NCBI GenBank assembly: GCA_038322875.1
Contig: JBBQGI010000001.1
Coordinates: forward strand, 20,372 to 84,371
DNA length: 64,000 nucleotides
Direction: 5' to 3'
Origin: Candidatus Limnocylindria bacterium
Lineage (GTDB): Bacteria; Chloroflexota; Limnocylindria; QHBO01
Shown here: in pieces, positions 59,735 to 62,472 of the stretch
How the letters are laid out: the number at the start of each line of letters is the position of its first letter
Position numbering within the stretch: the first letter of the stretch is position 1
Made by a program: the position numbers and the translations under genes
The notes under the pieces: model-generated
Databases searched by the model: none
What the model saw: the letters and a program-made list of their open reading frames with translations, nothing else
What the model was told of the DNA's origin: nothing

Positions 59735-59844
59735 CAGGTGCCCGATGATACCGGTGCCGGCCTATCCCCCTTTGGTCCCATGCGCGGAACGAGGGTGTGG
59801 GTATCGCTGATCTGGACGCCAGGGCGTACCCTATCGGACCCGTG

Positions 59845-62472
59845 ATGGACGGCTATTCGGTTCAAGAAGCAGCGACCGTCCTCGGGGTCGCTGAAGTGCG
59901 CGTCTGGGAACTGTTGGCCCGGGGCGTCATTTCCGGGACCCCCGAGGGTGACTCCATGCGCGTTTTTCTCAAGGCCGCGGCAGCGCCGTCGCCAGGGCCC
60001 GCTCCCCGCGACGAGCCACCGCGTACCAACGGAAATGGTGGTTCGCATGGCAACGGCGGTGAGCTGAGTGCGTTCCGAGAGGTCCTGACCGAGTTTCGCA
60101 ACCTGACCGAGCGCTATGGCCAGGCCCTCCTGGCGCTCGGCGAAGCCCGAGGCGAGGTTGCCGGGCTCCGCTCGCGGGTCGAGCTGCTCGAGGCGCGCCA
60201 AGACCTGCGCCTGCCGACCGCCCGCGATGACAGTCCGATTGCGTGGGGAGCGTCCGCCCCCAGCACGCCCACGCCTGAACCAGCGGTTCCTGCCAGTGTG
60301 GAGGCCGTGATGCCTGCTCCCGCACCGGTGCGTCCGGGCCCTCGCCCCCGGCCACGCAAGGCCCGCTCCAAGAAGATTGCGATGACCGGCTTCGCCGACG
60401 CGCTGGCGCGTGCACAGGACCCATCAGTCGCTGGTGTTGGGGACGCCCTGCCCTCCGTGGAGTTGGCCGTCGAGCAAATCGCGGAATTGTCCTCCGAGCC
60501 GTTCGCGGACGTCGTCGTGGAATCAATCGCGGCGTTCGACACGGAACCGATCGCAGACCTCGCCACCGAGCCGTTCGAGGATGTCACGACAGAGCCGTCG
60601 GAGGACCTCGACACCGAGCCGTTCGAGGATGCCGCCGCGGCGCCAATCACAGACCTCGGCGCGGAGCCGTTTGAGGATGTCGCCACGGCGCCGATCGAGG
60701 AATTGGCGGCGCCGCTCGCGGATGTCGCCGCGGGGGCGGAGACCTCTGAGCGATCGGGCGACATGGCGAAGGAAGAGGCTTCTGTGCCCGTCCGAGATGA
60801 AGCGACTGAGTTGGCCGCCGCAGAGCCCGAATCCGATGGGGCAGCGCCGACCTACAGCGCCGCCGTCGTCGAGCCGGACTGGTTTGCGGACGGTGACTTC
60901 GCCTGGCTGGATGCCGCCGACGCGGAAGCACGCAGCCAGCCCGAGCCGAGCGCCGTCCCCGCGACCACTGAAGCCGCCGTGGCTCAAGTGGCCGATGCCG
61001 ACCCCGTGACCGCCGCCGAGGCCGAGCTGGAGACCGAGCCCACGATCGCTCCCGAAGCCGAAGCCGAAGCCGAGCTGGCGGCAGCGCATGAGGACAACCA
61101 GCCTGAGCCGGTCATCGTCGCTGAGACCGGGGCCAAGCTGGCGCCAACGACGGAAGACGTGGAGCCCGAGACGACCGTAGTCGCCGAAAACGACGCTGAC
61201 GTGGCGCACGCGCCCGTGCACCTCGAGCCCGAACCGGACGTAGTTGCCAGAGCGGATGCTGAGGTCGCGCACGCATCCTTGGAGCTTGAGCCCGAATCGG
61301 TCATCGTCGCAGAGGCCGAAGTGGTACTGGGGTCCGAGGCTGGCATCGAGTCCGACCCGGTGACGATCGCCGGGGCCGAAGCTGAGGTGGTGCCCGCACC
61401 CGAGGACCTTGAGCCGGAGCCGGGCATGGTCGCCGAAGAGGCGGCGTCGGCCGATGACGAGGCGTACGCCGAGTCGGAAATTGGGATCGACGCTACGGCC
61501 GCGGTCGAGCAGCAGCCCGTCCTCGACCAGGCGGAGTTCGTCGAGCCGGAGCCATCGGTCGATCCGGAGTCGATTGCGTCTGCCGATACGGAGCGCGCCA
61601 TCGCCTCGGCATGGGGCGCCCCAGTCGATCCGCAGCTTGCCGGCGAACCCATCTTCCTCGACAACGAGATGTCAGCAGAACCGGAGCCAGACCTCGAACC
61701 GGAGCTCACGGCCGACGAAGAGCCGAAGCCCGCCGACGCTGTCGGTTCCGCGTCCGTGGAAGCGGATGTCCGGACGTCGCACGAGAACGCGGATCCGATG
61801 GGCCTGGTCGGGCAGGAATCAGCGTCAGGGCGAGCTGATCCCGGACCGATTGCGCTCCGGCAACGCGATCCTGATCCGGCTCCCGAGTTCCGCTCGCCCA
61901 GCGGCGAGGAAGAGATGATGTGGATCGGCGACGACCGTGAAGCGGCGTCGGAAATGAAGGCCGGCAGCCGGACCTTGCCGGTGGCCCCCTCCCGGTGGGA
62001 GACCGCAGCAACCGAGTCATGGCCCGCCGCGGACAGCGCTTCAAAGACTGCCGACTCGACGCGACCCCCGCTGGCCATGACCGAGGACGAGCTCGCCCAG
62101 CTGGCGCGTGATGAAGGCTGGAATGATGCCGAGGTGGCTGCGATCCGAGCCATGATCTGGCGTCCGGGTTCGCCTACCGCCGGATTGCCCGGGGGCGAGG
62201 AGCTGGACGAGGCAATGGCCGCCCTGGACGCGATCCCGGTCGAGGCGACCGATGACCCTGGGGCCTCGCGCGAATGGGCGAAAAGCCCCAGGGCCGAACA
62301 TCAGCCGCCTCCCGCCAAGGACTGGACCTTCGAGCTCGAGCCGAGCCTCGACGAGCTTCCGCCCGCGCGCACTGCGCCGCGCCGACCCCTGCCGGATCCC
62401 AGCCGAGCGCGTCGTCGGAAAGGCCCGGCGGCGACGGCCTATCGTCGGCTTCGTCGCCTCTTCCCGAGCTAG
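59845..62472 (+). CDS. large acidic low-complexity protein with N-terminal HTH (MerR/excisionase-like) and coiled-coil
   Basis: N-terminal YSVQEAATVLGVAEVRVWELLARGVI helix-turn-helix, then coiled coil, then ~700 aa Glu/Ala/Pro/Val-rich repeats (TEPFEDV..., AEVAHA.LELEPE...). Confidence 0.6.
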   Translation: MDGYSVQEAATVLGVAEVRVWELLARGVISGTPEGDSMRVFLKAAAAPSPGPAPRDEPPRTNGNGGSHGNGGELSAFREVLTEFRNLTERYGQALLALGEARGEVAGLRSRVELLEARQDLRLPTARDDSPIAWGASAPSTPTPEPAVPASVEAVMPAPAPVRPGPRPRPRKARSKKIAMTGFADALARAQDPSVAGVGDALPSVELAVEQIAELSSEPFADVVVESIAAFDTEPIADLATEPFEDVTTEPSEDLDTEPFEDAAAAPITDLGAEPFEDVATAPIEELAAPLADVAAGAETSERSGDMAKEEASVPVRDEATELAAAEPESDGAAPTYSAAVVEPDWFADGDFAWLDAADAEARSQPEPSAVPATTEAAVAQVADADPVTAAEAELETEPTIAPEAEAEAELAAAHEDNQPEPVIVAETGAKLAPTTEDVEPETTVVAENDADVAHAPVHLEPEPDVVARADAEVAHASLELEPESVIVAEAEVVLGSEAGIESDPVTIAGAEAEVVPAPEDLEPEPGMVAEEAASADDEAYAESEIGIDATAAVEQQPVLDQAEFVEPEPSVDPESIASADTERAIASAWGAPVDPQLAGEPIFLDNEMSAEPEPDLEPELTADEEPKPADAVGSASVEADVRTSHENADPMGLVGQESASGRADPGPIALRQRDPDPAPEFRSPSGEEEMMWIGDDREAASEMKAGSRTLPVAPSRWETAATESWPAADSASKTADSTRPPLAMTEDELAQLARDEGWNDAEVAAIRAMIWRPGSPTAGLPGGEELDEAMAALDAIPVEATDDPGASREWAKSPRAEHQPPPAKDWTFELEPSLDELPPARTAPRRPLPDPSRARRRKGPAATAYRRLRRLFPS
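60470..61450 (+). repeat. degenerate in-frame tandem repeats encoding acidic EPFEDV / LEPEP motifs
   Basis: recurring gagccgttcgaggatg... and ...gagcccgaa... units. Confidence 0.6.

What the first reader, a model, noticed from the sequence alone, without database searches (positions are those of the whole stretch)
59845..62472. 876-aa acidic, repeat-rich protein with N-terminal HTH DNA-binding domain
An excisionase/MerR-like HTH and a coiled coil are followed by ~700 aa of Glu/Ala/Pro/Val low-complexity repeats (TEPFEDV..., AEVAHAxLELEPExVVA...). The protein is predicted to be highly disordered and polyanionic. The fusion resembles nucleoid-associated or condensate-forming scaffold proteins and has no clear family assignment.
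Basis: seen in the sequence. Interest (0 to 1): 0.5.

Follow-up and report, generated by a model that had tools for sequence, protein, structure and literature searches.

The report
Conserved acidic tether protein with HTH
This is a real gene for an uncharacterised protein found only in one class of uncultured soil and freshwater bacteria (Candidatus Limnocylindria); it joins a small DNA-binding-type domain and a pairing helix to a very long negatively charged floppy segment that ends in a short, almost invariant, positively charged helix, an arrangement that suggests a tether or organising hub rather than an ordinary gene regulator.

Summary
Window 59845-62472 (+) encodes an 875-aa protein, 21% Asp+Glu, with degenerate tandem repeats.

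It belongs to a sharply bounded, unnamed family: about 213 clusters at 50% identity and 155 GTDB species. All are Chloroflexota or Candidatus Limnocylindria MAGs, apart from a few bins with other labels. No Pfam or NCBIfam model passes its threshold.

The anatomy, from N to C terminus:
- aa 1-42: a Xis/BldC/RacA-like winged HTH (AF2 pLDDT about 90; best PDB match Pukovnik Xis).
- aa 74-120: a nearly invariant helix of six heptads.
- aa 163-193: a basic patch followed by a short helix.
- aa 201-684: a polyanionic linker with net charge -112. Across the family its composition is conserved and its sequence is not.
- aa 335-359: an embedded near-invariant motif, VVEPDWFADGDFAWLD.
- aa 688-850: Trp-containing short motifs.
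- C-terminus: GPAAxAYRRLRRLFPG, nearly universal, amphipathic and MinD-MTS-like.

My best reading is inferred, not shown. The protein is a coiled-coil dimer that acts as a tether or hub, linking whatever the winged HTH binds (probably DNA) to the membrane or a partner through an anionic spacer. It is a new variant of known kinds and of moderate interest.

The parts
59827..59832 (+). -10-like hexamer TACCCT, 9 nt before in-frame GTG 59842 and 12 nt before ATG 59845. It implies a leaderless or nearly leaderless mRNA.
   Evidence: A TAnnCT (TAnnAT in 3 loci) hexamer lies 5-10 nt before the codon preceding Met1 in all 84 loci held (the related loci plus copies of this gene's own and two homologues' contigs). 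The consensus sigma-70 scan found no match. Function is inferred.
59845..62472 (+). Coding sequence of the 875-aa protein, stop codon included. The start may instead be GTG 59842.
   Evidence: ORF list and translation; identical gene call on a public contig; 423 homologues.
59845..59970 (+). aa 1-42: winged helix-turn-helix of the excisionase/MerR (HTH_17) type, with two helices and a beta-hairpin wing.
60007..60054 (+). aa 55-70: conserved Gly/Asn-rich loop RDEPPRTNGNGGSHGN between the wHTH and the long helix.
   Evidence: Consensus conservation 60-90%. Low pLDDT, so predicted flexible.
60064..60204 (+). aa 74-120: a single 47-residue helix, nearly invariant (FRELLTEFRNLTERYGQALLALGEARGEVAxLRSRVxLLEAR), with six uninterrupted heptads. 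Presumed dimerising coiled coil.
   Evidence: AF2 H74-120, pLDDT 71-94. 27 invariant columns among 26 diverse members. a/d positions are F77 V80 F84 L87 Y91 A94 L98 A101 V105 L108 V112 L115.
60331..60423 (+). aa 163-193: basic cluster (RPGPRPRPRKARSKK) followed by the short conserved helix GFADALARAQDP.
   Evidence: The FAEALARA-type motif is present in 205/213 full-length members. The 22 aa before it average net +3. Helix H181-190 in the model has low confidence.
60445..61896 (+). aa 201-684: polyanionic Ala/Glu/Pro/Asp/Val-rich linker, net charge -112, predicted disordered.
   Evidence: Composition and charge. The sequence is not conserved in homologues, but the composition is: 205 members have IDR length 101-601 aa (median 284), D+E 25%, K+R 2.9%, Pro 15% and net charge per residue -0.22.
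60550..60701 (+). Degenerate tandem repeats, 24/48-nt period: (T/A)EPFEDVx units, aa 236-286.
   Evidence: TRF: 48-nt period x3.1, 77% matches, score 171. Peptide view.
60847..60921 (+). aa 335-359: near-invariant aromatic-acidic motif PTYSAAVVEPDWFADGDFAWLDAAD, embedded in the acidic linker.
   Evidence: At least 90% column conservation in 20 aligned members. Present in 131/213 full-length members, including ones with only 46% N-terminal identity.
61162..61300 (+). Degenerate tandem repeats, 63-nt period x2.2: 21-aa units ...DAxVAHAxxxLEPEPxVV, aa 440-486.
   Evidence: TRF: 75% matches, score 143. Peptide view.
61906..61929 (+). aa 688-695: EEEMMWIG motif (family consensus EEEVMWLG), which opens the conserved C-terminal region.
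   Evidence: Conservation. Present in 133/213 members.
62065..62157 (+). aa 741-771: helical hairpin PPLAMTEDELAQLARDEGWNDAEVAAIRAMI.
   Evidence: Invariant L, A, E, G, W, E, A, I, R columns. AF2 H67-77 and H81-91 of the C-terminal model, pLDDT 84-92. EGW is present in 128/213 members. No fold match in the PDB.
62185..62241 (+). aa 781-799: conserved helix LPGGEELDEAMAALDAIPV.
   Evidence: AF2 H104-116, pLDDT about 85.
62269..62343 (+). aa 809-833: short Trp motifs REWAKSP and DWTFELEP (consensus RQWAKP and DDWAFEAEP).
62395..62469 (+). aa 851-875: basic C-terminal tail DPSRARRRKGPAATAYRRLRRLFPS. Its last 12-13 residues form an Arg-rich amphipathic helix.
   Evidence: Invariant R, G, A, A, A, R, R, R columns. 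The tail motif is present in 49/67 complete ORFs from related loci by a strict pattern, plus close variants. It has the highest hydrophobic moment in the protein. AF2 helix 861-872, pLDDT about 79. muH 0.58, H 0.28 and z +4 compare with the E. coli MinD MTS at 0.55, 0.40 and +3. The motif occurs nowhere else in the window or in the loci held.

Best explanation
The gene encodes a cytoplasmic, modular protein that most likely works as a dimeric tether or organising hub.

Shown by sequence and structure prediction:
- An N-terminal Xis/BldC/RacA-type winged HTH.
- A flexible conserved loop.
- A nearly invariant helix of six heptads.
- A basic patch.
- A polyanionic disordered spacer of hundreds of residues. 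Its charge and composition are conserved; its sequence is not.
- A series of short Trp-containing motifs.
- A nearly universal Arg-rich amphipathic C-terminal helix.

Inferred mechanism:
- The long helix pairs two chains, so the protein presents two winged HTH heads and two C-terminal helices.
- The heads, helped by the adjacent basic patch, bind DNA or a conserved partner.
- The paired C-terminal helices bind the cytoplasmic membrane, as the weak C-terminal targeting helix of MinD does only when present in two copies, or they dock onto a conserved partner.
- The anionic spacer acts as an extended, self-repelling, DNA-repelling bristle. It sets the distance between the two ends at roughly 20-30 nm here (my estimate from polymer scaling) and keeps the protein soluble.
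- The embedded aromatic-acidic motifs recruit further partners.

The net effect would be to link the nucleoid, or a DNA site, to the envelope or to a protein assembly. In this it would resemble RacA, Noc, PopZ or HubP, using parts that are not homologous to those proteins.
For: - The protein is real and under selection. There are 423 homologues, 213 clusters at 50% identity with a sharp cut-off, and 155 GTDB species genomes. The reading frame is kept across linkers of 101-624 aa.
- The winged HTH fold is supported.
- The RacA paper describes a wHTH joined by a disordered region to a coiled coil that anchors DNA to the pole (PMC4914108). That is the same N-terminal layout as aa 1-120 here.
- The coiled coil has an unbroken heptad pattern and is near-invariant.
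- The spacer has conserved composition without conserved sequence: D+E 25%, K+R 2.9%, Pro 15%, net charge per residue -0.22. This is close to the PopZ IDR, at net charge per residue -0.28 and acidic fraction 0.29 (PMC9512792).
- The tail is near-universal, has the highest hydrophobic moment in the protein, and is a predicted helix. Its amphipathicity and charge are similar to the MinD targeting helix.
- The MinD helix is weak and needs two or more copies (PMC6803595), which fits a dimer here.
- The protein is likely cytoplasmic. There is no transmembrane segment (maximum 19-residue hydropathy 1.16), and the N-terminus is a folded HTH rather than a signal peptide.
Against: - Nothing here tests DNA binding, dimerisation or membrane binding.
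- The winged HTH is net acidic (-2 or -3) in 43 of 51 members, which is unusual for a DNA-binding head.
- The tail is far more strictly conserved than a purely physicochemical membrane helix needs to be. That points at least as much to a specific protein partner.
- The HTH_17 match is below Pfam's threshold (16.8 bits against 27 for this protein).
- About 40% of family members lack the internal Trp motifs, so those motifs cannot be essential to the core function.
- Gene neighbourhood gives no support for a cell-biological role. The neighbours are a glucan phosphorylase, an M23 peptidase, an ICMT/PEMT-like methyltransferase, MarR and an MFS transporter.
Confidence: 0.35

Rival explanations
1. 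A protein-interaction hub or condensate scaffold in which the winged HTH does not bind DNA. The N-terminal module and the short Trp and Arg motifs each bind conserved partners, for example division, segregation or polarity proteins. The anionic IDR tunes solubility or condensate fluidity, as in PopZ, HubP/FimV or actinobacterial SepH.
For: - The wHTH is net acidic.
- The coiled coil and the C-terminal peptide are extremely conserved, which is typical of protein interfaces.
- Several near-invariant aromatic-acidic motifs are separated by non-conserved acidic spacers, a stickers-and-spacers layout.
- The IDR composition resembles that of PopZ.
- HubP/FimV hubs also carry extensive acidic cytoplasmic regions (PMC12918733 abstract).
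Against: - There is no sequence or fold relation to PopZ, HubP/FimV or SepH (DUF3071). None appears in the Pfam scans at E up to 1.
- With net charge about -120 per chain, self-condensation is unlikely without polycations.
- No partner is identified.
Confidence: 0.28
2. A transcription regulator, either an autoregulator or a regulator of the divergently transcribed alpha-glucan phosphorylase gene. Its acidic tail would act as an intramolecular DNA mimic that gates the HTH.
For: - The HTH plus dimerisation helix is the usual layout of MerR-like regulators.
- The gene is divergent from, and directly adjacent to, glgP in 50 of 76 loci with enough upstream sequence. The intergenic region is compact, about 108 bp, with conserved blocks.
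- A basic patch next to the coiled coil could be the target of the acidic tail.
Against: - A 500-1000-aa protein with a conserved C-terminal peptide and embedded motifs is far more than a regulator needs.
- No palindromic operator stands out among the conserved intergenic blocks, which look like two -10/-35 promoters.
- In several loci about 1.3 kb is inserted between glgP and the gene.
- No MerR, MerR_1 or MerR-DNA-bind model is hit.
- Class-wide synteny may simply reflect overall collinearity.
Confidence: 0.15
3. A cation-buffering or polycation-sequestering polyanion, binding Mg2+/Ca2+, polyamines or basic nucleoid or ribosomal proteins. The structured ends would serve only for localisation.
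For: - Net charge of the spacer ranges from -18 to -146 (median -64) across the family, and charge density is conserved.
- The DWFADGDFAWLD motif is rich in Asp around a Gly turn.
Against: - No known Ca-binding motif or family is hit.
- The strict conservation of the ends argues that they carry the main function.
- This reading is compatible with the tether and hub models rather than exclusive of them.
Confidence: 0.1
4. The ORF is an artefact of a GC-rich sequence, or the real gene is on the opposite strand.
For: Long antisense ORFs exist (for example 60984-62153 at 389 aa and 60523-61272 at 249 aa). GC3 of the ORF (0.77) is lower than in neighbouring genes (0.84-0.87).
Against: - The N- and C-terminal modules are conserved at protein level in hundreds of homologues, always in one frame.
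- Independent gene calls agree.
- The antisense frames have shadow-frame GC patterns.
Confidence: 0.01

Closest known systems
RacA (Bacillus subtilis chromosome-anchoring protein)
   Same: An N-terminal MerR/Xis-like winged HTH is joined by a disordered segment to a coiled coil. RacA links DNA to a membrane-associated site (PMC4914108). RacA's DNA-binding domain is among the structural matches of aa 1-42 (5i44).
   Different: There is no detectable sequence homology. RacA is 184 aa (from my own knowledge) and has no polyanionic spacer, Trp motifs or basic C-terminal helix. It anchors through its coiled coil to DivIVA. The head here is net acidic.
Excisionase / BldC-type small MerR-like DNA-binding proteins (Pfam HTH_17, TIGR01764)
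   Different: Scores are below the curated cut-offs. Those proteins are stand-alone domains of 50-70 aa, whereas here the domain is 5% of an 875-aa protein.
PopZ (alphaproteobacterial polar organiser)
   Same: A three-part logic: a binding element, then an acidic Pro-rich IDR with conserved composition and unconserved sequence, then C-terminal helices. Net charge per residue of the IDR is -0.28 in PopZ (PMC9512792) and -0.22 here.
   Different: The proteins are not homologous, with no Pfam hit. The PopZ IDR is about 93 aa and tightly length-controlled. Here the IDR is 101-624 aa and highly variable. PopZ has no HTH and no basic tail.
HubP / FimV polar landmark proteins
   Same: Large proteins with an extensive acidic, repeat-containing cytoplasmic region that recruit other machineries (PMC12918733).
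   Different: [quoted passage not shown] None of these is present here.
C-terminal membrane-targeting helices of MinD (also FtsA; N-terminal in Noc and MinE)
   Same: A short amphipathic basic helix at the extreme C-terminus. Its hydrophobic moment and charge are similar to the MinD helix. The MinD helix needs at least two copies to bind membrane (PMC6803595), which fits a coiled-coil dimer. The ending RLFPG resembles E. coli MinD's KRLFGG (recalled from my own knowledge).
   Different: The rest of the protein is unrelated to the MinD and FtsA ATPases. The peptide is far more strictly conserved than targeting helices usually are. Membrane binding is untested.

Membership tests
Pfam HTH_17 / TIGR01764 excisionase-family winged HTH (MerR superfamily) | Sequence match above the curated threshold | tested here: not met
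   HTH_17 scores 16.8-17.3 bits against a cut-off of 27 for this protein. The best family member reaches E 2.3e-5. TIGR01764 scores 15.3 bits against 28.8.
Pfam HTH_17 / TIGR01764 excisionase-family winged HTH (MerR superfamily) | Fold: two-helix HTH followed by a beta-hairpin wing | tested here: met
   AF2 gives H6-13, H17-26, E30-34 and E37-41 with pLDDT 88-95. Top PDB matches are Xis 4j2n, BldC 6ama/6amk and P2 Cox.
Pfam HTH_17 / TIGR01764 excisionase-family winged HTH (MerR superfamily) | DNA binding | not testable with these tools
   Only indirect evidence is available. R19, R26 and R39 are conserved, but the domain is net -2 or -3.
MerR-family transcription regulators | The HTH-wing is directly followed by a long dimerisation helix and a C-terminal effector-binding region, with matches to the MerR/MerR_1/MerR-DNA-bind models | tested here: not met
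RacA | wHTH, then a disordered linker, then a coiled coil | tested here: met
   against the description in PMC4914108.
RacA | Sequence homology to RacA, and binding to DivIVA and GC-rich centromere-like sites | tested here: not met
   No RacA model or PDB sequence hit. There is only a fold-level match of the 40-aa head. The binding properties are not testable here.
MinD-type C-terminal membrane-targeting sequence | Short amphipathic, basic helix at the extreme C-terminus | tested here: met
   Predicted helix at 861-872. It has the highest hydrophobic moment in the protein. muH 0.58 and z +4 compare with 0.55 and +3 for the MinD peptide.
MinD-type C-terminal membrane-targeting sequence | Actual membrane binding, dependent on copy number | not testable with these tools
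   This needs liposome co-sedimentation or GFP-peptide localisation.
PopZ (Pfam DUF2497) / HubP-FimV / SepH (DUF3071) | Match to the family model, or presence of the defining domains (PopZ C-terminal oligomerisation domain; LysM + TM + FimV domain; DUF3071) | tested here: not met
   None of these appears in Pfam scans of the whole protein, its N- and C-terminal parts, or 26 N-terminal homologues. There is no TM segment.

The most novel reading that the evidence does not exclude
Candidatus Limnocylindria carry a lineage-specific solution to nucleoid-envelope organisation. It would be a single polypeptide that combines a dimeric DNA-binding head, a 100-600-residue polyanionic entropic spacer studded with invariant aromatic docking motifs, and a paired membrane-binding or partner-binding Arg helix. 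Such a protein would do in one chain what RacA-DivIVA, Noc or PopZ/HubP systems do elsewhere. The rapidly evolving spacer length would set the nucleoid-membrane distance or the material state of an assembly.
Probability: 0.2. Interest if true: 0.65.

Novelty: new variant of a known kind. Interest (0 to 1): 0.45.

Why it matters
The family is apparently single-copy and strongly conserved at both ends. It is present in at least 155 species of a widespread, uncultured class of soil and freshwater Chloroflexota, and it has no name, no Pfam model and no solved relative.

Its layout makes it a natural test case for how bacteria use charged disordered spacers. The ends are invariant, and the anionic linker keeps its composition while its length varies about six-fold between related species. 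It is also a candidate for an unrecognised nucleoid, membrane or polarity organiser in a lineage whose cell biology is unknown.

The hypotheses are testable with peptides and domains expressed heterologously, without culturing the organism.

Tried and rejected
- **Curated family assignment.** Pfam and NCBIfam scans of the whole protein and of its N- and C-terminal parts gave only sub-threshold HTH hits and nothing for the C-terminal 190 aa.
- **Solved relatives by sequence.** Profile searches of both conserved regions and of the wHTH alone against PDB sequences gave nothing significant. The GlgB hit at E 0.053 and the phycobilisome-linker hit at E 0.13 are treated as chance.
- **Fold of the C-terminal region.** The AF2 model is mostly disordered, with three or four helices (mean pLDDT 64), and has no Foldseek match in the PDB. 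It is therefore read as a string of short motifs, not a domain.
- **Other architectures carrying the C-terminal module.** A profile search returned only fragments, split calls or frameshifted copies of the same family, plus one likely chimeric contig.
- **The tail peptide elsewhere.** It was not found in six-frame translations of the window or the loci held.
- **Remote relatives of the N-terminal module outside the class.** phmmer over 1.84 billion representatives gave 213 hits, 205 of them below 1e-10, so there is no visible tail of distant relatives.
- **Operator search.** In the glgP intergenic region the conserved blocks fit two promoters and no palindrome was evident.
- **Longer GTG start at 59797.** Rejected because it lies upstream of the conserved -10 box and homologues start at MDGYSV.
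- **Secreted or cell-surface low-complexity protein.** Rejected because there is no signal peptide or TM segment.
- **AFDB fold search.** The library was unavailable.
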